The notes under the pieces were generated by a model. It saw nothing but the letters and a program-made list of their open reading frames with translations, was not told where the DNA came from and ran no database searches. The translations under genes and the position numbers were made by a program. From a virus (lineage: Duplodnaviria > Heunggongvirae > Uroviricota > Caudoviricetes), in IMG/VR virus record IMGVR_UViG_3300033072_001087, positions 50,816 to 114,815 of that record: a DNA stretch of 64,000 nucleotides; one strand, written 5' to 3'. This document shows, in pieces, positions 42,484-59,702 of this stretch; positions within the stretch are counted from its first letter, which is position 1; every line of letters begins with the position of its first letter.

Positions 42484-43257
42484 TCAAGCAAAGTTATCTG
42501 CGAACATTGGCAGCGTGTAGGCAACGGATAGCCGCTTACGTGCTGTTACCGAGTGAACTGGCGAATTATCCCCAAGAATGTACCGTCGTCCCGTGTTCCG
42601 CGCAGCGACGCCGGTAGTGCCGCTGCCGCACGTTGGGTCTAAGACGACATCGCCAGATAGCGTATAGGTTCGTATAAGATACTCGATCAAGCTAACAGGC
42701 TTTTGCGTCGGATGCAGCCCGGTTTCGTTCGCAAATTGATGAACGGTCTTCGGGTATCTCCACCCCTCGTTGACTGTACCGAGCAAATCGAACTTGCCGT
42801 AGTTGGTCGTCTTGCCTTTCGTCTTTGCCTTGTACGGCGTTCCAGCTTCCATTTGCGGGAAATATACCGGTTCTTTCCGAGAGAAAATCAGAATGTTCTC
42901 GTGTGAGCGAAGCGGACGGCGGTTCGCATCCAAGAAGCCGCTTCCGCGCGGCTTCTCCCAAATCATCTCGTAGCGAAATAAGTCGAGTGCGCTCATAACC
43001 AACATACTCGTGAATGGTTGAGATCCGGTGAGCGCAATTACGCCGTCCGACTTGATGATGCGGCGGAAACGCCGCCACATCGGTTCAAGCGGAATCAGCG
43101 TATCCCAACTGTTTTGCGTTACCGCGTAGGGTAAATCTGCGAAGATGAAATCGACAACGACTCCCGCCTCGTAAATCCAGTCGCACAGCGAGAACAGGTC
43201 CAGAAAATGAACCGCGTTGAATAGATCTGAGGCCGTCCGCGCTGGCAGCAGGTTCAC
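42484..43257 (-). CDS. DNA methyltransferase (N4/N6 class).
   Basis: FADLPY-type motif IV and VLDPTCGSGTTGVAA motif I. Confidence 0.7.
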   Translation of the reverse strand: MNLLPARTASDLFNAVHFLDLFSLCDWIYEAGVVVDFIFADLPYAVTQNSWDTLIPLEPMWRRFRRIIKSDGVIALTGSQPFTSMLVMSALDLFRYEMIWEKPRGSGFLDANRRPLRSHENILIFSRKEPVYFPQMEAGTPYKAKTKGKTTNYGKFDLLGTVNEGWRYPKTVHQFANETGLHPTQKPVSLIEYLIRTYTLSGDVVLDPTCGSGTTGVAARNTGRRYILGDNSPVHSVTARKRLSVAYTLPMFADNFA

Positions 43258-44397: not shown

Positions 44398-45242
44398 TAC
44401 GTTGACTCCTCATTGATTGTTAGGTTCGCGAACATCGGTAGTGTTCGGATTGGATCGTAATTCATCCACAGCGATTCCATCTTCTGCTTTGGCGTCCCTG
44501 TGCCGCTAACTGTATTTACGGCAAAGTCCCTGCGCGTATACCCGTTTAAAGCGGAATACAACGCATTATCGTAGCCGCTCAAAATGACATATGCCTTCTT
44601 GATCGCGTTTAAAGCGGCGACCAACCGTTCGTGATGCGCATCATCAACATCATTTTCATACCGCGCTTCGGTCCGCGTCGATAAAACATATGGCGGATCA
44701 AGATAAATCAACGTCCGTTCGCGGTCAAATTCGCCGATCAGTTCCAGTGCGTCGCGGTTGGTCACAATGACCGTCGATAGCCGCGCGTGTAATTCCGGCA
44801 TTTCATCGACCGATGACAGGAAATCGCTGACCGACTTGCTCGTATTACGGCGAACGGTTGTGTTGATTGAGAACCCCCCAATGCCATTATGCCGTGTCCG
44901 ATTGACGTACCAGAAACGGAATGCGCGCTCAACATCATCCAATTCGCCGCGCAGCGATACGCGGTACTCGTTCGATGTGCTTTCGTCATAGAGCGCTAAC
45001 TGACACAGGCGATAAAATTCCGCGAACAACGCCTCATCGCGCAGCACTTTGAATAAGGCGTAGACATTCCGATTCACGTCGTTGTAGAGTTCAATCGGAA
45101 CGCGCGGCTTGTTGAGCAGAACAACGCCGCTTCCGCCATACGCATCCACGAACGTGTCGTATAAGGACTCGTCAGGGAAATAAGACAACAATTGCGCGAT
45201 CATGCCGCCTTTTCCGCCAAAATACTTGACCGGTGCGTTCAT
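44397..45242 (-). CDS. dam: DNA adenine methyltransferase (Dam-like).
   Basis: KYFGGKGGM (motif I region), DAYGGSG, YLDPPYVLSTR (DPPY). Start placed at MNAPVKYFGGKG. Confidence 0.75.
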   Translation of the reverse strand: MNAPVKYFGGKGGMIAQLLSYFPDESLYDTFVDAYGGSGVVLLNKPRVPIELYNDVNRNVYALFKVLRDEALFAEFYRLCQLALYDESTSNEYRVSLRGELDDVERAFRFWYVNRTRHNGIGGFSINTTVRRNTSKSVSDFLSSVDEMPELHARLSTVIVTNRDALELIGEFDRERTLIYLDPPYVLSTRTEARYENDVDDAHHERLVAALNAIKKAYVILSGYDNALYSALNGYTRRDFAVNTVSGTGTPKQKMESLWMNYDPIRTLPMFANLTINEEST

Positions 45243-45562
45243 TTTGTATCTAGTAATTTTGGCATGTACAGCGCGTGTTTGCCCATCACCCATCCATCCG
45301 GCATCGCGAAGATTTTTATCTTAATCGCCCAATCCGCAAACGCTTTTGCCTCAAGCAGCATCTTGATCTTGCCATCATCAAGGTTGGTTGCAGTTTGTGC
45401 TGCAAACAAGAGAAGCAAGCAGTACGATGCGCGCCAATAGACCATTTCGCGCCACGCTTTAAACCAGCGGTAAAGCAAGTACAATGGCACAAGAAATATC
45501 GCGAAGAACCACCCAACATCCGCGTTCATGAAGGCTGTCCAATCGATAATGCTGGCGTTCAC
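45239..45562 (-). CDS. Small membrane protein.
   Basis: Hydrophobic segment DVGWFFAIFLVPLYLLY. Confidence 0.3.
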   Translation of the reverse strand: MNASIIDWTAFMNADVGWFFAIFLVPLYLLYRWFKAWREMVYWRASYCLLLLFAAQTATNLDDGKIKMLLEAKAFADWAIKIKIFAMPDGWVMGKHALYMPKLLDTK

Positions 45563-45960
45563 TCGATCGATTCCTTTGCGTAATAGCGTGCGATCATCGC
45601 GTCCGTCTTACCAGTCTCATCGATGATACCGGCGCGTTTGCCGTATATCATGTGATATGGCTTACGCGTACTCAAATCAAGATAGACCGGTGTATTCCGC
45701 GCGCCGAAATAGTCGCCGTAGCCGATAATCGGACCTTGCTCATGTTTCTTGAATCGCTTCGCCGCTGGCTGCGTCGATGCTTCAATGGCCACCTGCTTGA
45801 CCGCCTCGATAAAATCGGGGTGTCGTAATGTGCGATAGACCGACTCGATGACGTTTTCCCAGACAATCGGGATTTGTTCGCCCCGCTCATCGTATGCCGC
45901 ACCGACAATACCCAATCCGATCGCCAATTTCATTGTGTTTACAGCGTCATGATGCTTCAT
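45559..45960 (-). CDS. Hypothetical protein. Start moved to MKHHD to avoid overlap with the ligase.
   Basis: ORF. A possible H..HD..D HD-like motif, but too weak to call. Confidence 0.25.
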   Translation of the reverse strand: MKHHDAVNTMKLAIGLGIVGAAYDERGEQIPIVWENVIESVYRTLRHPDFIEAVKQVAIEASTQPAAKRFKKHEQGPIIGYGDYFGARNTPVYLDLSTRKPYHMIYGKRAGIIDETGKTDAMIARYYAKESIE

Positions 45961-47029
45961 CGTTACCCTCTGTGCGTTCCTTGAAAGCATTGCGGTAGAT
46001 AATAGGTTCAATCGACTTTCCCGACTTAAGCGCAAACAAATACCCATGTACATCTTTCGGGTAATTTGCTTGTACCCACAGCGCGAAGTCCCGTTGAGTT
46101 CCGCTCGGCGCAATTGATATTGCGTCCACGCACTCGTTTGTGATGCGTGTTACTGTTTCATCTATCTCTCTTTTCCAAGCACGAATTTGATCAAGGAACT
46201 CGTCTGGTACGCCATCAATTAGCTGCTCGTATTTGTCTTGCGCAACCGCATCAAGGATTCGGTTAAAGCTGCATCCCGTCAAAATGCGATGAGCCATTAC
46301 ATACGCATCCCCCTTGACTTTAAGACGCATATTGTCCGAATAGCGCAGCACCCAGCCCTCCTCATTCGCACTTAAAGATTGCGCCGCATTCAAAATGTCA
46401 TCTATACTATCGAAGGTGTAGGTTCGCGGACGCATAAACCCATACGCATTTGCTATAACATCTAATTCAGCCGCATAAAGCTCGTGACCTAATTGAATAT
46501 TGCGCCCGCCAAGCAGCACAACACCCTCGTAATCGCCGTAATTTACGACGATGCGGTTTTCTGGATAGATGATTTCAAATAACAGCGTAACCCTGCTGTC
46601 AAATGCGAAATTGGGATGATGTTGTTGAAACCATGCGCTCGCCCATTGTGCTTGAGCGCCGGTGAACGATCCGCGCGTTGCCATTTTCCATTGATCGTTG
46701 TGGAAATACAAAATACCAAGCGAACCATCCATCTTTTCCGTTATCTCGATCAAACGAGCGCCCGGCATAGGAAAGATTTGTCCGTAATTCCAGAACTTTG
46801 AGAACGGACGGGCTATGCACTCGCCGTTCTGAGTGTTAAAAATCAGCCCTCGTGAATTCGCTTCGAACCAGTTCCATCCTGACGGCGGCTTAAATTGTGC
46901 TGCTTGGGTGTAGTTGAATAACACTAACCCGTCGTGGTATGTAGCTGATACCTCTCCATACTGGCTCCAATCTTGTTCGCCGCGCTGGATTAACGACTGT
47001 ATATCGCCCAAGGACCGGATACTATTCAT
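45947..47029 (-). CDS. ATP-dependent RNA/DNA ligase-family nucleotidyltransferase.
   Basis: ITEKMDGSLG is the KxDG lysine-adenylylation motif I. 360 aa. Confidence 0.5.
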   Translation of the reverse strand: MNSIRSLGDIQSLIQRGEQDWSQYGEVSATYHDGLVLFNYTQAAQFKPPSGWNWFEANSRGLIFNTQNGECIARPFSKFWNYGQIFPMPGARLIEITEKMDGSLGILYFHNDQWKMATRGSFTGAQAQWASAWFQQHHPNFAFDSRVTLLFEIIYPENRIVVNYGDYEGVVLLGGRNIQLGHELYAAELDVIANAYGFMRPRTYTFDSIDDILNAAQSLSANEEGWVLRYSDNMRLKVKGDAYVMAHRILTGCSFNRILDAVAQDKYEQLIDGVPDEFLDQIRAWKREIDETVTRITNECVDAISIAPSGTQRDFALWVQANYPKDVHGYLFALKSGKSIEPIIYRNAFKERTEGNDEAS

Positions 47030-47820
47030 GATGCTCCCCCAAATAAGCTCAATTGCACAACGCCGTCTTTAAGCGGCTTATCCGTAGGAAATTCGGCGAT
47101 GCGCCGGTTTGCCATTTCGACATATTTTCCAGAACGATCGCAGCCTAAGAAACAACGCTTGTGTTTAAGCGCGGCTTCAGCAACCGTTCCGGATCCCATA
47201 TACGGATCAAGGATAACTTGCGCATTCGTCGTGCGAATGCAGCGGCTTGCCAATTCCAGCGGAAATGGCGCGGGATGTTCGGTACCAGAGGCTTGTGGAA
47301 TATCCCACACATCCGTCAACCCGGACGATCCTTCGACAAACGTAAAATCAGCCATCGCGATGATGTAAATGACCTCATAGCTAGGCAAGAAATAACCACG
47401 ATTGTGATTGACTCCACCAGATCGCCGCCAAATAATAATCTGACGCAGCGGCGCATCACCGATGATCTTTTCAGCGTGACGTTGGTATAACCCATTCTGC
47501 ACGCGCCACTTGTGGTTGTAGAATATGACCCCTGTTTTCGGGTTAATCACACGCAGCAGTTCGCGCATCACCTGCCGCTGCCAGTCAATGTACTCATCTT
47601 CCGGCAAATCGTCTGCGTAGCCGTCGTAGCCATTTGTGACTAATTCGCCATGCCATCCCGAAAGCGGCGGATGCTTGAATGAATTGCCGCTGCTGTTGCG
47701 GATATTGTATGGCGGCGAAGTCACGACCGAGTCAACAAAACCATCGGGAATTCGCTTAAGGTAATCTAAATCTTTCTCAACAGAAATTGTATTAAGTTGC
47801 GGTGGGAGTACCATCAGCAT
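47026..47820 (-). CDS. DNA methyltransferase (N4/N6 class, ParB-less).
   Basis: VVTSPPYNIRN motif IV and DPYMGSGTVAEAA motif I. Confidence 0.8.
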   Translation of the reverse strand: MLMVLPPQLNTISVEKDLDYLKRIPDGFVDSVVTSPPYNIRNSSGNSFKHPPLSGWHGELVTNGYDGYADDLPEDEYIDWQRQVMRELLRVINPKTGVIFYNHKWRVQNGLYQRHAEKIIGDAPLRQIIIWRRSGGVNHNRGYFLPSYEVIYIIAMADFTFVEGSSGLTDVWDIPQASGTEHPAPFPLELASRCIRTTNAQVILDPYMGSGTVAEAALKHKRCFLGCDRSGKYVEMANRRIAEFPTDKPLKDGVVQLSLFGGAS

Positions 47821-49624: not shown

Positions 49625-50143
49625 TCAAGGGTGAGGTTGATTGAATGTCAAGGCAAAAAAGGCGTCGGCGTCAATGTAGTTCGTTCCACCATTTTCTGCG
49701 GCTAGCTTATCCTCAATGCGATCACCGATGTAGACCGTTTCTTTGAGGTCGTACCCCAGCTTCTTTGCCAGAAAATGCAGCATTCCCGGCATTGGCTTCC
49801 GCCACTGCGGATCGAGCGAGAATCCATGTTCAGGGTGGTTGAGAGCGTACTGCATCTGTCGCGTATAAGCAACGGATGGATGCCACAGCGCCGCAGCGAA
49901 AGCATCAGCGTTCACCAATACGGATAGCGCCGATAGCTTGAGCAAGACATCGCCAAGCGTGACATAGCCGAGCGAAACCCCTGCTTGGTTCGTCGCAATG
50001 GCGATGGCGTTTCGCTTTGAGAGCCGACGGACCGCGCCTACGCGGTTGTAGTAGATGCTTTCCCCGAAAGACTTACCCGTGAGCGGCTTTGCGTTTTTCG
50101 AGTGTGCTAACGTGCCATCGAGATCAAAGATGTAAAGCATGGT
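49625..50143 (-). CDS. HAD-superfamily phosphatase.
   Basis: MLYIFDLDGTL (motif I DxDGT), and a late IGDRIEDKL...D motif. The N-terminal 150 aa of the track ORF are judged non-coding. Confidence 0.6.
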   Translation of the reverse strand, partial: TMLYIFDLDGTLAHSKNAKPLTGKSFGESIYYNRVGAVRRLSKRNAIAIATNQAGVSLGYVTLGDVLLKLSALSVLVNADAFAAALWHPSVAYTRQMQYALNHPEHGFSLDPQWRKPMPGMLHFLAKKLGYDLKETVYIGDRIEDKLAAENGGTNYIDADAFFALTFNQPHP

Positions 50144-50190
50144 GCCTCGTTTCTGGCGGATGCGTAGTGCATCCGCCAGTGCGTGTGTTC

Positions 50191-50391
50191 TTATTTCTTG
50201 ATACTGACTGAAACAAGCGGCTTTGATAGGCGGATGATGAGTAGCCATGCGATGAGCGCAATAGCACCCCAAAGCGGATTGACGCCAAATGTCCAGATCA
50301 CGATCGCCCATCCGATGATCCCGATAGACAGCATCACGCCAAGAAAAATCACGAATAGCGCCACGAATAACAACCCAAACAGCGTCTTCAT
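50191..50391 (-). CDS. Small two-TM membrane protein.
   Basis: 66 aa, two clear hydrophobic helices. Immediately downstream of the SPFH gene. Confidence 0.4.
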   Translation of the reverse strand: MKTLFGLLFVALFVIFLGVMLSIGIIGWAIVIWTFGVNPLWGAIALIAWLLIIRLSKPLVSVSIKK

Positions 50392-50402
50392 GACAGACTC
50401 CT

Positions 50403-51695
50403 TTAAGCCGGAGGTGTTGGCGAGACAGGAACGGCGGTCGGTGCAACAGGCGGAATGAACGGCATGACGCTATCGCTGTCCATGATGTCCGGCAGCTGTC
50501 CGTCCCATCGGCGCACAGCTTCCAGATAGATCGAGTCTGGGTTCTCTGCAAGCGCTTCGGCTTGTGCGCGCTGGACTTCGGCATTCGCCTGCCCAGCAAT
50601 CACAGTCGCGGTTGCTGCGGCTTGACCACTGACAACGAGCGCATTGTTATAGATCGCAGTCTGTGTCGCACCAGCAATCGCTGCATTTTGTTGTTCCTCG
50701 CGGATGTAGGACTCGTCAATCGCCTCTTGGATGCGAACATTGTCATAAACCAACCCATTCATGCCGCCCAAGACTTCAATGGTAATGCCGTCCTGTGCAA
50801 ATGCGGCCGCCACTTCTGTGCGTGCGATTTCCCAAATCATCGATTTTTCACGCTGTGCCTGATCGACCGTGCGCTGCCCAAACTCGCGATCCAGAACCAC
50901 CTGCACGCGATCACGCACAACCGAGTCCAGCACCGAACCGAGATCGCGCGCATAGCGAACAGTCGCAAGCGGATCGCTAACCGCAATCGTCCCGTAGTGC
51001 GCCAGATACAGCGCGGCGTCTTCGGCGGCAATACGCGCGGTAATCACCGCGCCCACTGCGATCCCTTGACTATCGACGCTCTCAACCATCAACGCTTCGA
51101 CGGAGTCGGCGTCTTGACCGGGCAGGATTTGTGTCCACTCGCGCGATACTTCGGTTAGCGGCACAAGAATAACCGTGTGACTCGGACGCCAGACGCCCGG
51201 CAGATCAAGGAATCCGCCTGTCTTTACCCATGAACGCGTGATCGGAATCTGTGGACGAAGATCGCTCAAGTTTTCCCAATACTGTTCATTATGTTCGATT
51301 TCGCTGGCGTCATCAATGCCAGCCGTCAGACTTACCGTAAATGCAGCATAATTCGACTCGACCGCCACAAATTCGCGCGGCGGCGAACATGCGCCAGCAC
51401 CAATCGCGACAATCAATACCACCGCAGACAACACGACCGATTTGGCGAACCGCTTGATCAGCGGCACCAGCACATCGATCGCTTGAAATAGAAACGCCAC
51501 AATCACCGACAGCCCAACGATATTGAGCAGCACGTTTTGAATGGCATAACGCGATGCTTCGACTTCACTGTAATTCCCTCGCGCACCTTCGATGGTGAGC
51601 CGCGCCGCCGCTTCCGTCATGCTTGGCATCACAATGCCGTAGATGATGAGCATGACCAAAAGTAACACTGCCAGAATTCCCGCTTTGCGCATCAT
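50403..51695 (-). CDS. SPFH/band-7 (stomatin/HflKC-like) membrane protein.
   Basis: N-terminal TM ILAVLLLVMLIIYGIV, then an SPFH-like core and an Ala/Gln-rich C-terminal coiled coil (AIAGATQTAIYNNALVVSGQAAATATVIAGQANAEVQRAQAEALAENPD). ATGA coupling to the upstream gene. Confidence 0.45.
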   Translation of the reverse strand: MMRKAGILAVLLLVMLIIYGIVMPSMTEAAARLTIEGARGNYSEVEASRYAIQNVLLNIVGLSVIVAFLFQAIDVLVPLIKRFAKSVVLSAVVLIVAIGAGACSPPREFVAVESNYAAFTVSLTAGIDDASEIEHNEQYWENLSDLRPQIPITRSWVKTGGFLDLPGVWRPSHTVILVPLTEVSREWTQILPGQDADSVEALMVESVDSQGIAVGAVITARIAAEDAALYLAHYGTIAVSDPLATVRYARDLGSVLDSVVRDRVQVVLDREFGQRTVDQAQREKSMIWEIARTEVAAAFAQDGITIEVLGGMNGLVYDNVRIQEAIDESYIREEQQNAAIAGATQTAIYNNALVVSGQAAATATVIAGQANAEVQRAQAEALAENPDSIYLEAVRRWDGQLPDIMDSDSVMPFIPPVAPTAVPVSPTPPA

Positions 51696-52188
51696 TCGAT
51701 TATCTCCAGACCTTTTCTCTTGTACAAGTCGATACGTTGTTCGGTCCACGCGTGCCGATCCAGCACGCGGCATACCCTATTTCGGATGTCATCGGCGTAA
51801 TACGACCACAATGACCATTCGTCCCGTTCATCCAGCACCAGCACACATGATGAGGCGGACAAGTCCGGTGTCAGCAGTAATTCAGCCTCACAGGATTGCG
51901 CCGGATGAATGATTTGCCACGCATCCCCCCGGAAATTGAGGTTGGTTCCGCGCTTGTAGTGCGTGATTTCGCCTGTTTCGTGCAGCGCGCACAAGCGCTT
52001 GTGCCAGCGGAAATACGCCGTCCAATCCTTCGCATATAGGTCAATATCGCCATAGAAGTCCGCTTGCCCTGTCAGCCACAGCGGATAGCCCCCTGCGATC
52101 ATCAAGCCGCTGCCGACCATTTCGCGCAGCAGCGGCTCGTGTCGAATGGCGCGGCGCAATTCAAGGCGTTCGATCTGTCCGTTCGCCA
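51692..52188 (-). CDS. Minimal nucleotidyltransferase-fold protein.
   Basis: GGYPLWLTGQADFYGDIDLY is a G[GS]-x9-13-DxD NTase motif. Start at 52188 with a ggag RBS. Confidence 0.4.
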
Positions 52189-52487
52189 TTGCATTCTCCG
52201 TAGTACAGCACTTGGTATTCCCGCGCTCTCCACGCGTTTTGCATGATATACGCCCCGTCATTCCGCTTGTACACGATGTATTGACGATTGAACGACGAAT
52301 CGACGCTGATAATTTGCGGGACTCCGTTTTCAATGCACACATCGTCAAGAATTGGCGTTCCGCGACTATCGCCGCTATTAGGCGGAAGCAAGATAATAAC
52401 CGTGATAAACACGGCGACCGCAAGAACTACCCCAACAAGAGCAGGGAATAGATCGTGCGCGATTAGACGCCGCAGCATTTTTCTCAT
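52161..52487 (-). CDS. Small protein with N-terminal TM anchor.
   Basis: ALVGVVLAVAVFITVIILL. Confidence 0.3.
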   Translation of the reverse strand: MRKMLRRLIAHDLFPALVGVVLAVAVFITVIILLPPNSGDSRGTPILDDVCIENGVPQIISVDSSFNRQYIVYKRNDGAYIMQNAWRAREYQVLYYGECNGERTDRTP

Positions 52488-53536
52488 TGCCACCACTTCC
52501 AATCGACGCGCGTGATGTTCAGCGGCACAAATTCGCGCTGCCAACCGAGTTCGTCGTACATCACGCGGTCAAAAAGCGCGAACAATTGTTCAGGCTTGTA
52601 CAGCCGCGCGTGCTTGTCCGCCAACGTACATGCCCTGAAGTATTTGACCATCGGTTCGGGCATATCCTGACACGCCCAAAGCATACACTTCGCCGCCATG
52701 TAAATATCGCTGGCAGGTACGGTATCGGTACTCCCAAGCAGCGTTTCGGTCGGATAAAAGTTCTCCCACCGGTCGATCATGTACGAGAACTTCGCGCCCG
52801 CCTCGACCGCGCATGTCCAGTCGATCAGGTAGCCGCGATGCTGTCCGCCGCCACCGATGCCACCGGGTTTGAGCAGGATGTTATCCGGCACTACCGCCCC
52901 GTGCAAGTAGCCAAAGGCGTGCGGGATGGTCAGCGCAGCCAGAACCCGCCGCCAGATCCACGAAATCGCTTTCACAGGAACATGACGATCATAGATGTCA
53001 GCAAGCGTTGTCAGCGAAATCAGTTCATCGCCCTTCACATCATCGCTGTAGGCGAGAATGTGATAGTAGCCGTCGTCGTCCATGTCGCTTTCGACGAGGC
53101 GCGGAATGTACTTGAACGCTTCGCCTTCGTACAACGGCAGCGCGTTGATCCGGTTTAGGATGGCTTCTTCGCGGTCGAACAAGTCTTTGTCGCCGGTGAG
53201 AAGCCGTTTTGTGACCGTCCCATCCGCATTCAACGTGACGGACGCGATTTCGCCGACGCCGAGCATGTGTGAATCATCTTCGACCCACAGCTCATATTTC
53301 GCGTTCAAGTCGGCGATGAAGTCCTCCGCCAGCCCGTACACTTCCTTGTCGCCCATGTGTGCATCGGGGTGATAGGACTTCACAAGCCGCCGCCGAACGT
53401 CGTCAATTTGCGCTTCGACGTTCCCAAAAACCATCGCCGGTGTCGATTGGCGCATCTGTGCGTGCAGTGAACGCAGTTGATCGCGTACGGGCAATTGCTG
53501 AAAAGTTTGCAGGTTCATGTGCGACTCCATTCGCAT
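52484..53536 (-). CDS. J-domain (DnaJ-like) fused to a protein-kinase-like fold.
   Basis: RRRLVKSYHPDAHMGD carries the HPD tripeptide of J-domains. YLHGAVVPDNILL resembles the kinase catalytic loop (HRDLKPENILL, with the Asp replaced), and YLIDWT is DFG-like. Confidence 0.4.
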   Translation of the reverse strand: MRMESHMNLQTFQQLPVRDQLRSLHAQMRQSTPAMVFGNVEAQIDDVRRRLVKSYHPDAHMGDKEVYGLAEDFIADLNAKYELWVEDDSHMLGVGEIASVTLNADGTVTKRLLTGDKDLFDREEAILNRINALPLYEGEAFKYIPRLVESDMDDDGYYHILAYSDDVKGDELISLTTLADIYDRHVPVKAISWIWRRVLAALTIPHAFGYLHGAVVPDNILLKPGGIGGGGQHRGYLIDWTCAVEAGAKFSYMIDRWENFYPTETLLGSTDTVPASDIYMAAKCMLWACQDMPEPMVKYFRACTLADKHARLYKPEQLFALFDRVMYDELGWQREFVPLNITRVDWKWWQ

Positions 53537-54663
53537 ACGCGCCGTCCATGCCCCATGATTTTCACGGGAGCGAATGCGGCGACTTCGATTAGCTCAACCA
53601 ATGACTTCAGCGAGTGTACTTCGATGTAGTCTTTCATTCCGATTCGATCTGTTCCGCGCAAATCGATAACATTCCATAGCTGTTCTGGATTGAATCGATC
53701 AACATGCGACAATGCGATTTCGTGAATGCCGCCCAGAATGTTGTCTGCGGCGTAACGCAGCAGCTTGCGGTCAAGCCAGCCAACGCGCCATGCTCCTTGT
53801 AGTTCCGGTAGTCCGTCGTGATTGTGTCGCTCGACTATTGCCTTACGATCGAGCATATGACTCTCTGACGGGAACGGTCCAACGCCATGCCGCGTGGCAT
53901 AGATGCGGGTTACGCCAACCCGCTTGACCTGTGTGCCGGACGGAATCATCTCCAGAGCGCCTGAAAATGTCGTATCGCTCGACGTGACATATGGGCGATA
54001 GCCGCGATCGCAATCCAACAGCGCTCCTTGTGCGCCTTCAAAGATAACGTGATCAAAGCCGCCGAGTACACTTTCGTCCGAAACGGCGGTCACGACGTTA
54101 TTCAATGCGTCGATCAAATCATCGCCGATTTCCCGATAGAAACTCTCCACCGGACAAATGCGCGCTTCAAGGTACTGCAGCTTCTCATAGACTCTTTGCG
54201 GATCGTTGATCAGATCGCATACGCGCAGCGCCATATCGGGATGGGTTTCTGCCCAGCGCTTCGTGGTGCCTACCCCATTCGCCGTCGTACCGCGCTTGTG
54301 TATGCTGGCGTTGATCAGCGACGTGTACTTGTGATACTCTGTCACGACCAACGCTTGCGGATGAACGATCAGCGCCGGATTTTCACCTAATAGGCGCAGC
54401 CGTTTGTATTCTGCCCACGCCTCGATCGGATCGAAACACACATGCCGACCAAGATACGTGGAAGCGCCCTCAAACGTGCCGCTTCCGAATTGACGGAAGG
54501 TGTGATGGCGAAAATCGTCCGATGTGACGTTGTGCGCAGCGTTCGCGCCACCGTTGTACCGCGCTACCATCTTAGCAGCGTGCTGGCGCGTCAAAAACGC
54601 GGTCGTCATGCCTTTACCTTCGTCGCCGAACCCAAGTCCGGCGACTACCGTTGCGCTTTTCAT
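53515..54663 (-). CDS. Adenylosuccinate synthetase homolog (PurA-like / possibly PurZ-like).
   Basis: GFGDEGKGMTTAFL (GDEGKGK P-loop), YNGGANAAHN (GGxNAGH), IFEGAQGALLDCDRGYRPYVTSSDTT (very close to PurA [25 protein letters not shown]), ATRHGVGPFPSE. At 382 aa it is shorter than bacterial PurA. Confidence 0.75.
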   Translation of the reverse strand: MKSATVVAGLGFGDEGKGMTTAFLTRQHAAKMVARYNGGANAAHNVTSDDFRHHTFRQFGSGTFEGASTYLGRHVCFDPIEAWAEYKRLRLLGENPALIVHPQALVVTEYHKYTSLINASIHKRGTTANGVGTTKRWAETHPDMALRVCDLINDPQRVYEKLQYLEARICPVESFYREIGDDLIDALNNVVTAVSDESVLGGFDHVIFEGAQGALLDCDRGYRPYVTSSDTTFSGALEMIPSGTQVKRVGVTRIYATRHGVGPFPSESHMLDRKAIVERHNHDGLPELQGAWRVGWLDRKLLRYAADNILGGIHEIALSHVDRFNPEQLWNVIDLRGTDRIGMKDYIEVHSLKSLVELIEVAAFAPVKIMGHGRRVCEWSRT

Positions 54664-55722
54664 TTACAGCCTGCGAAGTGTGTGTGATTGATCAGCGGTG
54701 ACGATCGAACCCGCGCCGAACAGCGTCAGCGCGCGATCGATGACTTGCAGCCCATTGCTCGTCGCGGTGTTGCCATTCGACAGGGCTTCCATGATTTGCT
54801 TCTTGCTTGCGCCTGCCGTGCGCGCGATCAACGCGGTTGTAAGTTCCGACATATCGGAAGCGTCCGCCATCTTGATCGTGCGTTCCGCGCCCAACAAGCC
54901 GCTCCAACGCGCAAAACAGTTGTCGCGGAAATCAGACCCGTAGCCGTCGCTTTCCGAACAAAGCACGCCAAACACATCATATTTCTTCTTGACTTCAGCG
55001 ACTAATTCTTCGATCTCCATATCCCGAAACGCCTCCTTTGGAAGCTCGCCGACAGTCGAACGCTGCATTTTGTCGCTCATCTCACCGTTACTGATAGTGC
55101 CGATGGGCTTGTCCCGATACAGACTGCGCAAGCGCGAGGCGTAGATTCGATCGTAAGGAAGCTCGTCGAACATGATGACAAGGATGCCTTTGCGCCCGTC
55201 TTTCCAGATTTCAAGATCGTTCTGGTAAGCAGCCGCCCACAACGCGGCTTCATAGGCTTCGTGCCCATTGCCGTAGCCGCGTCCCGCTGGCCACAGACGC
55301 TCAAGCCACTTGGTCATCACCGACAGATCGGCTTCGAATTGCGACAACTGCAGCGCCCCATCCGCATTATCGCCGTAATAATCGTCAACCGCGCCGATTT
55401 GGAGGTTTGGATGAAACTCCTCCGGGATAAGGTATTCCCACAGCCCGTGAATCTGCGGCATGTCGTCCATGATCTTCCGCGCTGCCTCCGCGTTCGATCC
55501 GGTCACGTCAACAATCAGACTCGCCGAAATCAACGTCTTGTCCGACCGATCTTTCGGCTTGAGCGAATAGCGTTTGCCGCCGAACGCCGGATCCAACGCT
55601 GGATGCAGGCTGCTGCCAGTCTGTACGGTTTTGCCGTTATAGCTGAAGACCGTGCCTCCCGTTGACCGATACGCCGAAACCGCTTGCGCGGTTTGCTGCG
55701 CGTTACCGCGTGATGCTCCCAT
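54664..55722 (-). CDS. von Willebrand factor A-like domain protein.
   Basis: LIVDVTGSN is a MIDAS-like DxSxS variant. Weak. Confidence 0.35.
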   Translation of the reverse strand: MGASRGNAQQTAQAVSAYRSTGGTVFSYNGKTVQTGSSLHPALDPAFGGKRYSLKPKDRSDKTLISASLIVDVTGSNAEAARKIMDDMPQIHGLWEYLIPEEFHPNLQIGAVDDYYGDNADGALQLSQFEADLSVMTKWLERLWPAGRGYGNGHEAYEAALWAAAYQNDLEIWKDGRKGILVIMFDELPYDRIYASRLRSLYRDKPIGTISNGEMSDKMQRSTVGELPKEAFRDMEIEELVAEVKKKYDVFGVLCSESDGYGSDFRDNCFARWSGLLGAERTIKMADASDMSELTTALIARTAGASKKQIMEALSNGNTATSNGLQVIDRALTLFGAGSIVTADQSHTLRRL

Positions 55723-55778
55723 GTGATCGTCCTTTCATATCCTATATTGAACTATTATAACACACCGCGCTTGTTAGT

Positions 55779-57404
55779 TCAAGCCCCAAGTGTGCCACTT
55801 AAGAGTTCCAGCACTTGTGCTTTTTCCGCCACCCATTCTAGAATACTCTCTGGTAATTCAGAGAGAATTTCATCGATAGAGCGCAAGCGTAGGTGCGCTG
55901 CCATCAATAATAAATCCTGTGGGGTGATTGTGTCATCCCCTACAAAATCGGGGTAATATTGTGTAACATACTCCAATGGCTCTAGCGCATCCTGATCGAT
56001 CGCCTGTTCAACGACGGAAAAGAGCGTCGGATCATGAAAATCGCCGCGATCAAGCAAGCGTAGGTTGTGACTGCGAAACTCGCGTTTCAAGTACCAGTGA
56101 TGCGTGAGGTATCCATAAGCAACCGACTGCTCCAGCATGTGTGAGTCGGGAACGGGCGCAACAATGGTGACGGGCTGTTTTATGGACGGCGTTTCGCGAA
56201 TAGAATCGATCGGCAATGACAGCGACAGCGCGATCTTCTGCTGTGCGTCGATTCGTTCCAAGTGATTAGAAGAGGAAAGCAGTTCAATCAGCCGCAGCGC
56301 CGCGTTTTTGCGTTCTTGAAACGATTGTGGATTGCCGCGCAGTTCATGGGCGATCATGTAATCCACAACTGGAATCGCCTGCGCGATCGCGCTTGCCCAT
56401 GTCCCCGCCTTCACTAGATCGTCCGGATCCGCGCCCTGCGGAAGTTCTGCTACCCACAAGTCATAAGCTGTCTTCGCCAACTGCGCGATCCCACCGACCG
56501 TCGCGCTCTCCCCCGCCTTGTCACCATCCAGCGCGAGAATGGTTTTGCTCTTGCCGATGAGTTTTGCCTGTGCGTCGGTCAGTTGTGTACCCATCTGCGC
56601 GACGACATCCCGATACCCCGCCAAATGACACTGAATGACATCGAAATAGCCTTCTACCAGCACCATTGAACGTGTTGAGCGAATGACGGATTTGCCCTGC
56701 ACGTAGCCGTACAGGATGGAGCCACGATCAAAGATTTCGGTGCGTGGCGTATTTAAGAATTTCGGCTGCACATCATCGCTCAATGAGCGCCCGGAAAAGC
56801 CGACGATCGCGCCACTTGCATCGAATAACGGAATAATCAACCGTCCGCGAAACAATTCCGTAATTCCGTGTTCGCCTTTATGCAGCAACCCGATTGCCAA
56901 CAATTCGCTTTCCTTGAAGCCCCGCTTTTCGAGTGTTTTTGCGACGCCCCAACGCGGTGAATAGCCCAAGCGAAATTCGCTCATGAGCGCTTCGCCAAGC
57001 CCACGCGCTTCAAGGTGATCGCGCGCTGGATTAGATGTTTCGACAAGCGACTGACTGTACAATTCAGCCGCCGCCGCCAACGCGTCGTAAAGCCGCTGCT
57101 TGTGCCGCGATCCCTGCCGTTGAATTTCGACTCCCGCTTCTTTCGCAAGATTCTCAATCGCGGTTGCCAGATCCCAACCGTGTTTGAGCCGCGCGAAATC
57201 AATGACATCGCCGCCCGTTGCGCACGCCCCAAAACAGCGCCATTTCCCCGTATCCGCGTTGAGAACAAAAGAAGGCGTCGAATCGTCGTGCAGCGGACAG
57301 CGGCATTTGTAGCGATTGGTTCCGGTTTGCTTGACGTCTGGCGCGAACTGCCGTACATACGACAGCAGATCGATTTTGTTCTTAATATCTTCGATTGTGG
57401 ACAA
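55779..57404 (-). CDS. dnaG: DNA primase.
   Basis: Zinc-binding CHC2 region YKCRCPLHDDSTPSF...WRCFGAC, TOPRIM LVEGYFDVI...DGDKAG. Confidence 0.85.
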   Translation of the reverse strand: MSTIEDIKNKIDLLSYVRQFAPDVKQTGTNRYKCRCPLHDDSTPSFVLNADTGKWRCFGACATGGDVIDFARLKHGWDLATAIENLAKEAGVEIQRQGSRHKQRLYDALAAAAELYSQSLVETSNPARDHLEARGLGEALMSEFRLGYSPRWGVAKTLEKRGFKESELLAIGLLHKGEHGITELFRGRLIIPLFDASGAIVGFSGRSLSDDVQPKFLNTPRTEIFDRGSILYGYVQGKSVIRSTRSMVLVEGYFDVIQCHLAGYRDVVAQMGTQLTDAQAKLIGKSKTILALDGDKAGESATVGGIAQLAKTAYDLWVAELPQGADPDDLVKAGTWASAIAQAIPVVDYMIAHELRGNPQSFQERKNAALRLIELLSSSNHLERIDAQQKIALSLSLPIDSIRETPSIKQPVTIVAPVPDSHMLEQSVAYGYLTHHWYLKREFRSHNLRLLDRGDFHDPTLFSVVEQAIDQDALEPLEYVTQYYPDFVGDDTITPQDLLLMAAHLRLRSIDEILSELPESILEWVAEKAQVLELLSGTLGA

Positions 57405-57624: not shown

Positions 57625-58242
57625 CTACCCTATATCGAACAACTGCATCTGTTTTACCATATCCAACGCCTCTGGAATTGACTCCATTGGCATTTGTTTG
57701 CGTTTGCTAATTTTCGCGAAGGTAAACGGTCGTCCGATTCCCAATCTCCACGTAAACCAGACCGATGCGAATTGACTACTGCTGCCCTCAAAGCCGATGT
57801 TTGGCATTCCGTAGTCGATACGCTTATTCATGAACACGAACTCGAACCCGTAGCGATCAAAGAGCGCCTGCGCCTGCCCGGATCCCAATACATCGAGTGG
57901 CATGATCAGCGCAAATGGCTTATCCAGCAAATAGGCGCGTGTCAGCCATTTATACTTTATGCTGAACGGCGGATTTGTGACCATGACATCGTAGTGATCA
58001 GGAACGCTTTCACTCAGAAAGTAGTTCTGTCCGGTCAAAAGATCGCCGCTAATGACCTTATGTCCGTTTGTCAAGAGCGTCCGTTCAATATAACCACCCC
58101 CTCGCGCTGGTTCCCAAATCACCCACTCCGGCTTCAAGTACGGAAGAATCGGATCGAGCGCGTAATCAGGAGTTTGGCACTGATCGCGTCGATTTACGGT
58201 CGATCCGTTCGACTGCTTGTCGTTGCGCTTGGGCTTGCTCAT
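57625..58242 (-). CDS. N6-adenine DNA methyltransferase.
   Basis: MVTNPPF (NPPF motif IV) and an upstream EPARGGG motif-I-like region. Confidence 0.7.
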   Translation of the reverse strand: MSKPKRNDKQSNGSTVNRRDQCQTPDYALDPILPYLKPEWVIWEPARGGGYIERTLLTNGHKVISGDLLTGQNYFLSESVPDHYDVMVTNPPFSIKYKWLTRAYLLDKPFALIMPLDVLGSGQAQALFDRYGFEFVFMNKRIDYGMPNIGFEGSSSQFASVWFTWRLGIGRPFTFAKISKRKQMPMESIPEALDMVKQMQLFDIG

Positions 58243-59702
58243 ATCCCGCTACCGGCATACTCATCGGCGTCAAAGATCTTCATGTAAGACGTGTCGATGC
58301 GGAACAAAATATCATCATGCGTATCGACATTGCGCCCTTTGGCGATGATAAGTTCCGCTTCGTGCGGATCGCCATATCCCTTGTTCTTTTGTAGCTTCGA
58401 TGGACGCCACAGAAACAGGACGCCATCGGCATTGTCCTGCGCGGCTGAAGTGCCAAACAGATCATTCATGTTGAATTTGTCGTCTTCGCTGCGCCCTTCG
58501 TAATTTCGGTTCATTTGCGTGGCGCAGATCAACGGCGCGTGTGCAAAATCTTTCTTTGACCACTTGTCGATTCGCGTGAACATCGCCGCCATTTCCGATG
58601 GCGTATCCGTTCCGCCAGCAAACTTGGTCGTCTTCGCGTAGTCAAGGAATAGAATGTCAAAGCCCGGATTATAGAATGCGCTGTAAATCTCGCTCTCCAA
58701 TTCATCCAGCGTCGGGCTTACCTTGCGTAGAATCGTGAATTGTCCGCTGCCGACCAGCGTTGCGACGCGCTGCTGCGCTTCCGCCAGCCGCTCCAGTTCG
58801 TCTCCCTGAAAATCGCGTTTTTGATAGTGCGTGTAATCTATGCGTCCAAGATTGCAAATCAGGCGATCGATAAACTCGTTGGGGTCCATTTCCAGTGTCA
58901 CGTACAGAACGCGATACCCCGCCATCGCGGCGTTGAGCGCCCAATTCATCATGACTACCGTCTTCCCCCAGCCTTGCGGCGCAGAGAAGATATAGAGTCG
59001 CCCGCGCTGCCAGCCCAACAACGCCTCATCCATCGCTTTGAGTCCGGTTGTGATGCCCGGCTTAAACGACGGATCGGCGATCTCGGCTTTGACCTGTTCG
59101 ATACGCTTTTGTACTGTATCCACAGCGTCATACAACGATTGCCCGCTCATGCTGTCAAGCCGCATTTGCAGTTGACGTTCGGCGGAGCGAATTTCTGCCA
59201 GCGCGGATGGCAAATCGCGCTGCGAATCGTCAAGAATACTAAGCGCATGTTGGCTCAAATACATAAACCCACGACGGACGGATAAACGCATCAAAGCGTC
59301 CGCGTAGGATTGCACAGAAAGCCCCTTTACAGACGCGATCAGCGTGTTTAGGTAGCTATCCCCCCCAACGTAATCCAGAACCGATCTAGCCCCATTTTTG
59401 ACCGATTCCAAGCGTGTTCTGAGAGTTGTTAGATCGACGTGCTGCCCATCGCGTGCGATTGCTTGCATCGCCTTGTAAATCGTGCCGTTTTGCACGAAAT
59501 AGAAATCTCTGTAATCGAGTCCGCCGATGCTTTTCATCAGCGCCGATGTATCAGCGCTTGGCGACTGCCCCTTGAGCAGAATCGCGCCTAACAGCGATTG
59601 TTCAAGTGTGCGATCGGACGGATAATCAGGATCCTTTTTGTTGCCGACAACGACTTTCGTTGGCGTCGAAATCTGGTTGTTGACCCAAATATCGATGGTC
59701 AT
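58239..59702 (-). CDS. dnaB: Replicative DNA helicase (DnaB family).
   Basis: N-terminal EQSLLGAILLKG, Walker A IFSAPQGWGKT, RecA-like core. Confidence 0.85.
   Translation of the reverse strand: MTIDIWVNNQISTPTKVVVGNKKDPDYPSDRTLEQSLLGAILLKGQSPSADTSALMKSIGGLDYRDFYFVQNGTIYKAMQAIARDGQHVDLTTLRTRLESVKNGARSVLDYVGGDSYLNTLIASVKGLSVQSYADALMRLSVRRGFMYLSQHALSILDDSQRDLPSALAEIRSAERQLQMRLDSMSGQSLYDAVDTVQKRIEQVKAEIADPSFKPGITTGLKAMDEALLGWQRGRLYIFSAPQGWGKTVVMMNWALNAAMAGYRVLYVTLEMDPNEFIDRLICNLGRIDYTHYQKRDFQGDELERLAEAQQRVATLVGSGQFTILRKVSPTLDELESEIYSAFYNPGFDILFLDYAKTTKFAGGTDTPSEMAAMFTRIDKWSKKDFAHAPLICATQMNRNYEGRSEDDKFNMNDLFGTSAAQDNADGVLFLWRPSKLQKNKGYGDPHEAELIIAKGRNVDTHDDILFRIDTSYMKIFDADEYAGSGI

What the first reader, a model, noticed from the sequence alone, without database searches (positions are those of the whole stretch)
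50191..55722. Unusual accessory gene block inside the replication module: vWA, PurA-like, J-domain/kinase-like, TM protein, minimal NTase, SPFH plus small membrane protein
Seven consecutive, translationally coupled minus-strand genes between dnaG and the HAD phosphatase combine signalling/chaperone domains, a minimal nucleotidyltransferase (GDIDLY) and a membrane SPFH scaffold with a small 2-TM partner. The NTase and SPFH genes overlap by ATGA. None belongs to a canonical phage replication set. The combination looks like a host-takeover, anti-defence or abortive-infection-type module that has not been described as a unit.
Basis: inference. Interest (0 to 1): 0.75.

Follow-up and report, generated by a model that had tools for sequence, protein, structure and literature searches.

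The report
Conserved vWA, PurA-like, J-pseudokinase cassette
The seven-gene phage block is real but composite: its first three genes (a vWA protein, an unusual adenylosuccinate-synthetase-like enzyme and a J-domain kinase-like protein) form a cassette that recurs in hundreds of phages and bacteria and has no described function, while the other four genes are add-ons of this phage lineage.

Summary
The block is not one co-conserved seven-gene unit. Only the first three genes travel together widely. In 160 loci found through the vWA protein alone, a PurA-like gene lies downstream on the same strand in 141 of 148 loci with enough sequence, and a J-domain kinase-like gene is present in 118 of 160. 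This holds in uncultured large phages, all Bixzunavirus mycobacteriophages, Rhizobium and Vibrio jumbo phages, and bacterial chromosomes. The PurA-like enzyme is not PurZ, despite the PHROG label. It keeps Asp13, whereas the three PurZ/PurZ0 sequences I aligned have Ser. It is not a canonical PurA either, because the aspartate-binding loop and Arg143 are replaced. The kinase domain lacks the catalytic Asp. The NTase and SPFH genes are kept only in this phage's own clade. The two small membrane genes are absent from the most distant relative examined; one has a homologue in a closer relative. I found no paper on the trio. My inferred mechanism is a GTP-dependent purine-nucleotide ligase with a non-aspartate acceptor, controlled or targeted by a vWA partner and an Hsp70-recruiting adaptor. 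Its role (host takeover, counter-defence or defence) is unresolved.

The parts
55754..55782 (-). Promoter-like site (TTGAAC, 17 nt with TG, TATAAT) in the 56-nt dnaG/vWA gap, followed by AAGGA and the vWA ATG
   Evidence: This is a consensus match only. The total number of such sites in the region is not above the shuffled expectation.
54664..55722 (-). vWA-domain protein (352 aa) with a MIDAS-like DVTGS motif. Family features are a downstream GDE, an invariant Met-Gly N-terminus and a conserved N-terminal extension, which AF2 models at low confidence (pLDDT below 50 for residues 1-39). First gene of the conserved trio.
   Evidence: AF2 pLDDT 72.8; the top Foldseek PDB hits are all integrin I or vWF A domains; phrog_2971
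53515..54663 (-). Divergent PurA-like enzyme (382 aa). The P-loop with Asp13, His41 and Gln224 are kept. The Asp-binding loop TTGRRRR is replaced by LPELQGAWR, Arg143 is lost, and the protein has the TRHG signature of the vWA-linked clade.
52484..53536 (-). J-domain (HPD motif) fused to a protein-kinase-like domain whose catalytic loop reads HGA instead of HRD/HGD. It is a predicted pseudokinase or atypical enzyme. The likely start is 53518 (ATGA overlap).
52161..52487 (-). 108-aa single-pass membrane protein; lineage-specific
   Evidence: a homologue only in the close relative L186
51692..52189 (-). 165-aa minimal Pol-beta-type nucleotidyltransferase candidate (GGYPLWLTGQADFYGDIDLY plus invariant Asp109). 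It belongs to a rare family of about 27 clusters at 50% identity.
   Evidence: The AF2 single-sequence model is unusable.
50403..51695 (-). 430-aa SPFH/Band-7 membrane protein with three N-terminal hydrophobic segments
50191..50391 (-). 66-aa very hydrophobic protein with AGGAG 7 nt upstream of the ATG. It is not an NfeD-type partner, being too short for an OB domain.
50153..50179 (-). 11-bp G+C-rich RNA hairpin just after the small membrane gene, without a U tract
   Evidence: -22.5 kcal/mol, z = -7.1, 0 of 200 shuffles fold as well
49625..50140 (-). HAD-IIIA / PNK 3'-phosphatase-type hydrolase (171 aa).

Best explanation
The block is a composite operon of a novel siphovirus-like phage of about 115 kb. 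SHOWN: its first three genes form a widespread, self-contained cassette made of a MIDAS-bearing vWA protein, a PurA-superfamily enzyme and a J-domain protein with a kinase-like domain. The usual order is J-V-P; here it is V-P-J. The enzyme belongs to a distinct, vWA-linked clade of the PurA superfamily. That clade keeps the GTP P-loop, the catalytic base Asp13, the catalytic acid His41, Gln224, Thr239 and mostly Asp333. It has lost the L-aspartate loop (Thr300/301, Arg303/305) and Arg143, and it has gained Gln38 and His273. The kinase-like domain lacks the catalytic Asp in most members. INFERRED: the enzyme still carries out the first PurA half-reaction, GTP-dependent phosphoryl activation of C6 of a 6-oxopurine nucleotide. 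The substrate would be hypoxanthine-type rather than guanine-type, because Asp13 is kept rather than the Ser of PurZ. The enzyme then passes the activated nucleotide to an amine other than free aspartate. The vWA partner binds or presents the target or regulator through its MIDAS site and its conserved N-terminal extension. The J-domain pseudokinase couples the pair to host Hsp70 (DnaK). In the phage the cassette is an accessory host-manipulation or counter-defence function expressed with the replication genes. It is not part of replication itself and not a Z-base pathway. The TM protein, NTase, SPFH and small membrane protein are additions of this lineage with no demonstrated link to the trio.
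For: Linkage: in loci retrieved with the vWA profile only, a PurA-like gene lies downstream in 72 of 75 viral loci and 69 of 73 bacterial loci with at least 1.3 kb downstream. A J-kinase-like gene is present in 55 of 80 viral and 63 of 80 bacterial loci. All-against-all clustering finds only these three families recurring, in 180, 167 and 122 loci; the other large clusters look like antisense shadow ORFs of these three genes, judged from a few example coordinates. Gene orders are JVP 102, VP 52, VPJ 5 and VJP 4, all on one strand. The flanks vary across phyla. Cultured carriers are about 200 Bixzunavirus phages (phage I3 gp270, gp271 and gp273), 10 Rhizobium jumbo phages and Vibrio phage phiKT1024. 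Enzyme: residue conservation in 162 family members; signature comparison with E. coli PurA and three genuine PurZ/PurZ0 sequences; HMM scores far below both equivalog cut-offs. PMC8342488 describes Arg303 and the TT loop as aspartate contacts. J-domain plus kinase fold and loss of the catalytic Asp. vWA fold and MIDAS. Lineage-level status of NTase and SPFH.
Against: No biochemical or genetic data exist for any member. The acceptor substrate and the Hsp70 link are inferred from sequence alone. The window's own copy is atypical for its clade, since it keeps Asn38 and Thr128/Thr129 like a true PurA, so it could retain IMP binding and ordinary activity. Alignment of the Asp loop is gapped. No fusions or predicted complexes tie the three proteins together physically. 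The loci were sampled as the best 80 hits per collection and include near-duplicates, so the percentages are not phylogenetically independent. The NTase and SPFH genes do stay adjacent to the trio at 40-50% identity, and SPFH-like genes lie within 7 kb of the pair in about five other viral lineages. A looser functional tie therefore cannot be excluded.
Confidence: 0.5

Rival explanations
1. Plain auxiliary metabolic gene. The PurA-like protein is a working adenylosuccinate synthetase that boosts AMP and dATP supply for phage replication. The vWA and J-domain proteins only fold, stabilise or regulate it.
For: The catalytic residues are fully conserved. The window copy keeps Asn38 and Thr128/129. 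The gene lies in the replication and nucleotide region, and in other phages it lies near NAMPT, NUDIX, dCMP deaminase and PRTase genes.
Against: Thr300/301, Arg303/305 and Arg143 are not conserved. The score is 153 bits against a PurA equivalog cut-off of 402. A simple metabolic enzyme would not need an obligate vWA partner. The cassette also occurs in 80 bacterial genomes sampled here, which would normally carry a housekeeping purA of their own (general knowledge; not checked here).
Confidence: 0.2
2. One reading: all seven genes act as one anti-defence, host-takeover or abortive-infection system that combines a cytosolic sensor/enzyme part with an NTase and an SPFH membrane scaffold.
For: The genes have one promoter-like site, tight coupling and a terminal hairpin. 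Five of the seven genes keep their order in a relative whose DnaB is only 40% identical. SPFH-like genes lie near the pair in about five other viral lineages.
Against: The NTase and the two small membrane genes are absent from all 180 other loci, and no bacterial locus has an SPFH gene. The synteny in the relative extends to the flanking core genes, so it is not specific to the block. The NTase family has no relatives in IMG/VR or in the metagenome scan.
Confidence: 0.1
3. The trio is a bacterial defence or stress cassette that phages carry for competition between phages or for superinfection exclusion. The PurA-like enzyme would be an effector that depletes or alters purine nucleotides, and the vWA and J-pseudokinase proteins would be the sensor.
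For: The cassette is compact, sporadically distributed, and has variable flanks. It has neighbours typical of defence islands: toxin-antitoxin genes, BrxC/BrxD-domain genes and a helicase gene in Desulfamplus, PIN and NTase genes in Electrothrix, and CRISPR-associated genes in L020. The kinase domain weakly resembles kinases of the MkoA, PD-T4-6 and MADS6 defence systems.
Against: There is no PADLOC hit for the vWA or PurA-like proteins. The Rhodococcus copy lies among ordinary metabolic genes. The cassette is stably kept in about 200 lytic Bixzunavirus genomes.
Confidence: 0.15
4. PurZ: the gene makes 2-aminoadenine (Z) DNA, as the PHROG and RefSeq label '2-aminooxy adenylosuccinate synthetase' implies.
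For: phrog_1211 at E=1e-60, and the same label on relatives in RefSeq.
Against: The P-loop reads GDEGKG, while PurZ/PurZ0 of VP5, AbaSI_2 and BigMack read FGS. PMC12884076 reports Ser in 100% of 147 phage PurZ sequences. The PurZ model scores 64.5 bits against a cut-off of 300. No DatZ, MazZ or PolA gene was found among the neighbours scanned, whereas genuine purZ genes lie next to them. The phage encodes several adenine or N4/N6 DNA methyltransferases.
Confidence: 0.02

Closest known systems
PurA (adenylosuccinate synthetase) and phage PurZ/PurZ0
   Same: Same superfamily (PF00709). The GTP P-loop, Asp13 (as in PurA), His41, Gln224 and Thr239 are conserved. The protein is a short form like archaeal PurA and PurZ.
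   Different: The aspartate loop and Arg143 are replaced. The clade has its own signatures: Gln38, Ser-Cys at 128/129 (not in the window copy), His273 and a xQGxxR loop. It is obligately paired with a vWA gene and has no DatZ, MazZ or DpoZ neighbours. It scores below both equivalog cut-offs.
TerY-P triad (vWA + Ser/Thr kinase + PP2C phosphatase; recalled from Anantharaman, Iyer and Aravind 2012, not re-read here)
   Same: A vWA protein encoded next to a protein-kinase-fold protein in a small mobile operon of bacteria.
   Different: There is no phosphatase. The kinase fold lacks the catalytic Asp and carries a J domain. The third partner is a PurA-like enzyme.
vWA-MoxR chaperone pairs
   Same: A MIDAS vWA protein coupled to a chaperone system and acting on a specific enzyme or complex.
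   Different: The chaperone link here would be a J domain recruiting Hsp70, not an AAA+ MoxR ATPase.
Phage J-domain protein Rki of RB43 (recalled from Perrody et al. 2012)
   Same: A phage-encoded J domain that can hijack host DnaK.
   Different: Here the J domain is fused to a kinase-like domain and genetically tied to two other proteins.
SPFH-NfeD operons and poxvirus VP55 / minimal nucleotidyltransferases
   Same: An SPFH gene followed by a small membrane gene. The NTase shares the G[GS]-x-DxD catalytic motif, best matched by the vaccinia poly(A) polymerase catalytic subunit (E=0.002).
   Different: The 66-aa partner is too short for an NfeD OB-fold domain. The NTase is only 165 aa, its fold is unconfirmed and its substrate is unknown.

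Membership tests
PurZ / PurZ0 (2-aminoadenine pathway) | Ser (rarely Gly) in place of PurA Asp13 in the P-loop | tested here: not met
   The window reads GFGDEGKG. Asp is present in all 159 aligned family members. PurZ/PurZ0 of VP5, AbaSI_2 and BigMack read FGS in the same alignment. Literature criterion.
PurZ / PurZ0 (2-aminoadenine pathway) | Score above the NCBIfam NF038379 cut-off (300 bits) | tested here: not met
   64.5 bits
PurZ / PurZ0 (2-aminoadenine pathway) | Neighbouring DatZ / MazZ / DUF550 / Dut-like and PolA (DpoZ) genes | tested here: inconclusive
   None was found among the 18 proteins scanned between 42.4 and 63.6 kb. The rest of the window and the roughly 50 kb of genome outside it were not scanned.
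Canonical PurA (adenylosuccinate synthetase) | Catalytic and GTP-binding residues: P-loop, Asp13, His41, Gln224, Asp333 | tested here: met
Canonical PurA (adenylosuccinate synthetase) | L-aspartate loop Thr300-Thr301-Gly-Arg303...Arg305, and Arg143 for the IMP phosphate | tested here: not met
   The window has E-L-Q-G-A-W at those positions and Asp at position 143. The positions are not conserved in the family. Their roles are described in PMC8342488.
Canonical PurA (adenylosuccinate synthetase) | Score above the equivalog cut-offs (NF002223 402 bits; TIGR00184 395 bits) | tested here: not met
   152.9 and 140.8 bits
Canonical PurA (adenylosuccinate synthetase) | Catalysis of IMP + Asp + GTP to adenylosuccinate | not testable with these tools
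   Needs an enzyme assay or purA complementation.
vWA domain | vWA alpha/beta fold | tested here: met
   AF2 model with pLDDT 72.8 and pTM 0.75. The Foldseek PDB hits with E below 1e-3 are almost all integrin I, integrin beta-I or von Willebrand A domains; the exceptions are the pilus adhesin SpaC and collagen VI, which I take to match through A-type domains.
vWA domain | MIDAS metal site (DxSxS plus distal acidic residue) | tested here: met
   Invariant D72-x-T74-G-S76 and G-D186-E187 in 123 sequences. Thr replaces the first Ser.
J-domain (Hsp40) proteins | HPD tripeptide and J-domain profile similarity | tested here: met
   HPD is present in 112-114 of 122 members. The family profile hits DnaJ J domains at E from 1e-10 to 1e-8. 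Single-sequence Pfam missed it.
Active eukaryote-like protein kinases | Kinase fold | tested here: met
   The profile hits CDPK, PAK and StkP kinase domains at E from 6e-12 to 1e-8. phrog_3043 is annotated 'kinase'.
Active eukaryote-like protein kinases | Catalytic Asp of the HRD/HGD loop and Asp of DFG | tested here: not met
   The loop reads H-G-A in the window and in the family consensus. The DFG position is Asp in the window but Gly in the consensus.
Pol-beta-type (minimal) nucleotidyltransferases | hG[GS]-x(9-13)-DxD motif plus a third carboxylate | tested here: met
   GG...YGDIDLY and invariant Asp109 in 28 family members
Pol-beta-type (minimal) nucleotidyltransferases | Significant profile or fold match to a known NTase | tested here: inconclusive
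   The profile hits vaccinia VP55 at E=0.002 over the motif only. Five of 28 members hit PF03296, best E 0.002. The AF2 model has pLDDT 43 and is unusable.
SPFH / Band 7 | Pfam PF01145 above the gathering score, and a membrane anchor | tested here: met
   32.4 bits against 23.6; three N-terminal hydrophobic windows
SPFH-NfeD operon | Partner with NfeD membrane segments plus an OB-fold domain | tested here: not met
   The partner is 66 aa, almost entirely hydrophobic, and has no family hit.
TerY-P triad | PP2C phosphatase encoded with the vWA and kinase genes | tested here: not met
   Only three recurrent families were found in 180 loci. No phosphatase is among them.
Catalogued anti-phage defence systems (PADLOC-DB 2.0) | Match of the component proteins to a system model | tested here: not met
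   No hit for the vWA, PurA-like, NTase or SPFH proteins. There are only weak kinase-domain matches (MkoA 2.6e-11, PD-T4-6).

The most novel reading that the evidence does not exclude
The vWA / PurA-like / J-pseudokinase trio is a new kind of Hsp70-coupled conflict or stress system. In it, a PurA-derived enzyme uses GTP to attach a purine nucleotide through C6 to a non-aspartate amine on a macromolecule, which would be a previously unknown N6-linked nucleotidylation. One candidate acceptor is the near-invariant N-terminal Gly of its vWA partner; another protein or an RNA is also possible.
Probability: 0.15. Interest if true: 0.85.

Novelty: new variant of a known kind. Interest (0 to 1): 0.62.

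Why it matters
About two thirds of phage PurA homologues fall outside the PurZ clade (PMC12884076: 147 PurZ-group sequences among 481 viral PF00709 homologues). Many are nonetheless labelled PurZ-like or PurA-like in databases. This work shows that a large share of them form a separate clade that is genetically locked to a vWA protein and usually to a J-domain pseudokinase. That corrects a misleading annotation: these phages should not be predicted to have Z-DNA. It also defines a three-gene cassette present in at least several hundred phage and bacterial genomes whose chemistry probably differs from both known PurA-type reactions. Cultivable carriers exist (Bixzunavirus on M. smegmatis, Rhizobium and Vibrio jumbo phages, Rhodococcus, Nocardia, Lentzea), so the function can be tested directly.

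Tried and rejected
- **DNA similarity to known phages:** no match; the phage is novel.
- **PurZ / Z-genome reading:** rejected.
- **Sequence-profile search of the vWA family against PDB:** nothing found; fold search was needed.
- **The search for homologous proteins with single sequences:** only 3 hits for the vWA protein and 2 for the NTase. The vWA family only opened up with an alignment built from loci.
- **NTase:** the single-sequence AF2 model was too poor for fold search. Scans of IMG/VR and the metagenomes with the NTase family found no relatives.
- **afdb50 fold library:** not available.
- **PADLOC:** no system match.
- **Literature searches** for PurA with vWA, kinase, defence or mycobacteriophage: nothing on the trio.
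- **Link to RNA-repair genes** (RNA ligase, PNK phosphatase, Thg1, Metallophos): these are seen in the window, phage I3, L021, L189 and L193, but in only 9 of 97 viral loci within 7 kb. I judged this too weak to build on.
- **Gene fusions among the three families:** none.
- **SPFH association:** 11 viral loci in about five lineages and no bacterial locus. I left it as a loose observation because no control set was available.

Full report
**1. The observation**

After correcting starts with external gene calls on public contigs that carry the same sequence, the genes are:
- vWA, 54664-55722
- PurA-like, 53515-54663
- J-domain/kinase-like, 52484-53518 (or 53536)
- a 108-aa single-pass membrane protein, 52161-52487
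- a 165-aa NTase candidate, 51692-52189
- a 430-aa SPFH protein, 50403-51695
- a 66-aa hydrophobic protein, 50191-50391

The junctions are 0, -4, -4, -29, -4 and +11 nt, and three of them are ATGA overlaps. The 56-nt gap after dnaG holds the best promoter-like match of the region (TTGAAC, 17 nt with TG, TATAAT) followed by a ribosome-binding site. An 11-bp hairpin without a U tract follows the last gene (-22.5 kcal/mol, z = -7.1). A second strong promoter-like site follows the HAD phosphatase gene. In this phage the genes therefore look like one transcription unit. The promoter calls are consensus matches only, and their total number is not above chance.

**2. What the proteins are**

- **vWA.** Pfam finds nothing for the vWA protein. 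An alignment of homologues shows an invariant D-x-T-G-S motif, a G-D-E motif and a conserved N-terminal extension that starts Met-Gly. An AF2 model (pLDDT 72.8) matches integrin and von Willebrand A domains.
- **PurA-like.** The second protein hits PF00709 at 1e-49.
- **J-domain/kinase-like.** The third protein gives only faint kinase hits on its own. A 61-sequence family profile hits J domains (E about 1e-10) with its first 80 positions and Ser/Thr kinase domains (E=6e-12) with the rest. The HPD motif is present in more than 90% of 122 members. The catalytic loop reads H-G-A, and the DFG Asp is Gly in the consensus, although it is Asp in the window copy. The domain is therefore predicted to be a pseudokinase or an atypical enzyme.
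- **NTase.** The NTase candidate has no library hit. An exhaustive search finds a rare family of about 27 clusters. The family has invariant GG...DxD plus a third Asp. Its profile weakly matches the catalytic motif of vaccinia poly(A) polymerase (E=0.002), and 5 of 28 members touch PF03296. The single-sequence structure model was unusable.
- **SPFH.** SPFH passes the Pfam threshold.

**3. Not PurZ, not a standard PurA**

PHROGs and RefSeq label this family '2-aminooxy adenylosuccinate synthetase'. That label would imply a Z-DNA phage. Several results argue against it:
- The diagnostic residue says otherwise. PMC12884076 reports Ser at the Asp13 position in all 147 phage PurZ/PurZ0 sequences, and Asp in 99% of the PurA clade.
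- In my alignment, genuine PurZ/PurZ0 from Vibrio phage VP5, Acinetobacter phage vB_AbaSI_2 and Arthrobacter phage BigMack read FGS. The window reads FGDEGKG.
- The real purZ genes lie beside PolA/DpoZ, YfbR-like and pyrophosphohydrolase or Dut-like genes. None of these was found among the 18 neighbours scanned here.
- The NCBIfam PurZ model gives 64.5 bits against a cut-off of 300. The PurA equivalog models give 153 and 141 bits against cut-offs of about 400.

Across 162 members of the clade:
- Conserved: Gly12, Asp13, Lys16, Gly17, His41 and Gln224 are essentially invariant, Thr239 is 97% conserved and Asp333 is 90% conserved.
- Lost or changed: Arg131, Arg143, Thr300/301 and Arg303-305 are not conserved, position 38 is Gln in 97% and position 273 is His in 98%.

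Arg303 and the Thr-rich loop contact the aspartate substrate in PurA and PurZ (PMC8342488). The window copy shares the clade signatures TRHG and xQGxxR, but unusually keeps Asn38 and Thr128/129.

**4.

No related DNA exists among deposited phages. Loci retrieved with the PurA-like protein had a homologue of the vWA protein immediately upstream in 13 of the 17 IMG/VR loci. Mycobacterium phage I3 has kinase gp270, vWA gp271 and PurA-like gp273 in a row.

I then retrieved loci with the vWA profile alone, taking 80 loci from IMG/VR and 80 from species-representative bacterial genomes:
- A PurA-like gene lies downstream on the same strand in 72 of 75 viral loci and 69 of 73 bacterial loci that have enough sequence.
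- The J-domain kinase-like gene is present in 55 of 80 viral and 63 of 80 bacterial loci.
- All-against-all clustering of 8,792 ORFs finds just these three families recurring, in 180, 167 and 122 loci. The other large clusters appear to be antisense shadows of these genes; I judged this from a few example coordinates, not systematically.
- Gene orders are J-V-P in 102 loci, V-P in 52, V-P-J in 5 (the window's order) and V-J-P in 4, always on one strand and never fused.
- In 19 loci that lack the J-kinase, an unrelated protein of about 200 aa takes the upstream position.

The vWA family has more than 4,000 members in the protein collection. Cultured carriers are about 200 Bixzunavirus phages, ten Rhizobium jumbo phages and Vibrio phage phiKT1024.

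Bacterial carriers include Rhodococcus, Nocardia, Lentzea, Actinoplanes, Chloroflexota, Abditibacteriota and Competibacter. In them the three genes form a compact operon with unrelated flanks. Some copies lie next to toxin-antitoxin, BrxC/BrxD-domain, helicase or CRISPR-associated genes. The Rhodococcus erythropolis copy lies among dehydrogenase, regulator and transporter genes.

**5. The other four genes**

None of the roughly 180 loci contains a relative of the TM protein, the NTase or the small membrane protein. Two contigs from the same phage clade do keep the arrangement:
- L186 (NTase 64% identical) has PurA-like, J-kinase, TM, NTase and the start of SPFH.
- L196 (DnaB 40%, DnaG 45% identical) has vWA (40%), PurA-like (45%), J-kinase (39%), NTase (44%) and SPFH (50%) in the same order, but lacks both small membrane genes.

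In L196 the flanking DnaB, DnaG, HAD and Dam genes are syntenic as well. This shows stable inheritance in the lineage rather than a specific functional tie. A different NTase homologue (L195) is not followed by an SPFH gene. SPFH-like genes lie within 7 kb of the pair in 11 viral loci from about five lineages, and in no bacterial locus. This is suggestive, but I had no control set.

**6. How it most likely works**

Shown:
- There is a three-gene cassette.
- Its enzyme keeps the residues for GTP binding and for phosphoryl activation of a 6-oxopurine, but has a remodelled acceptor site.
- Its partner is a vWA protein with an intact MIDAS site.
- Its third member joins a J domain to a catalytically impaired kinase fold.

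Inferred:
- The enzyme activates a hypoxanthine-type nucleotide and transfers it to an amine other than free aspartate.
- The vWA protein presents or regulates the target.
- The J domain brings in host DnaK.

I rate this overall model at about 0.5. Rivals:
- An ordinary AMP-boosting PurA with helper proteins: 0.2.
- A defence cassette carried by phages: 0.15.
- A true seven-gene system: 0.1.
- PurZ: 0.02.

The biological role in this phage (host takeover, counter-defence or exclusion) remains open.

**7. Novelty**

Four full-text searches found no paper on the trio. The PurZ papers treat the non-PurZ phage homologues only as an outgroup. The components belong to known superfamilies, so I class this as a new variant of a known kind. 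Specifically, it is a third clade of phage PurA-type enzymes with dedicated partners. It also has a practical consequence: the database label suggesting Z-DNA synthesis is wrong for this clade.

Noticed in passing
window 45947-47029 and 49625-50140: A T4 Rnl1-type RNA ligase (PF09511) and a PNK 3'-phosphatase-type HAD hydrolase lie just downstream of the block. Together they look like a tRNA-repair pair. RNA ligase, PNK, Metallophos or Thg1 genes also lie near the vWA/PurA-like pair in phage I3, L021, L189 and L193, but in only 9 of 97 viral loci overall.
   Followed up: partly
window 42484-43257, 44397-45293, 47026-47820, 57625-58242: The replication arm has an unusually high number of DNA methyltransferase genes. 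By Pfam there is one N6_N4_Mtase gene (42484-43257) and one D12 Dam-class gene (44397-45293). Another N6_N4_Mtase gene (47026-47820) rests on the precomputed annotation of the matching public contig. A 205-aa protein has an NPPF motif but no Pfam hit.
   Followed up: no
window 43267-44397; 58239-59702; 55779-57404; 60763-62163: The phage encodes its own Pol III beta sliding clamp, DnaB, DnaG and a RecT-like protein. No DNA polymerase gene was found among the 18 ORFs scanned between 42.4 and 63.6 kb.
   Followed up: no
L001, L006, L031, L047, L057, L058, L064, L071, L085, L086, L089, L091, L099, L102-L104, L139, L147, L168 (ORF just upstream of the vWA gene): In loci without the J-domain kinase-like gene, an unrelated protein of about 200 aa with an acidic tail takes the same upstream position. 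It may be an alternative third component.
   Followed up: no
L001, L006, L013, L014, L064, L093, L095-L098, L104: SPFH-like proteins of about 317 aa lie within 7 kb of the vWA/PurA-like pair in about five independent viral lineages, and never in the 80 bacterial loci. This may be a loose association with the SPFH gene of the window.
   Followed up: partly
phage records such as NC_054717.1 (CharlieB), MK359336.1 and NC_013650.1: In some Bixzunavirus genomes only residues 1-179 of the vWA protein match, and in one record the region is annotated as an HNH endonuclease. This suggests a homing-endonuclease or intein-type interruption of the gene.
   Followed up: no
L023 (Ca. Electrothrix scaldis CP138355.1) 13313-14947; L188 (Desulfamplus) 11107-11813: In Electrothrix a separate 544-aa DnaJ-domain protein without a kinase domain lies next to the PurA-like gene. 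In Desulfamplus a PIN toxin-antitoxin pair is inserted between the vWA and PurA-like genes.
   Followed up: no
L200 (Vibrio phage phiKT1024) 7403-8911 and 1038-1682: A TROVE (Ro60-like) protein gene and a NADAR-family gene lie within a few kb of the vWA/PurA-like pair of this cultured jumbo phage.
   Followed up: no
window 50153-50179: A very stable hairpin (z = -7.1) without a U tract lies between the small membrane gene and the HAD gene. It could be a processing or stability element rather than a terminator.
   Followed up: partly
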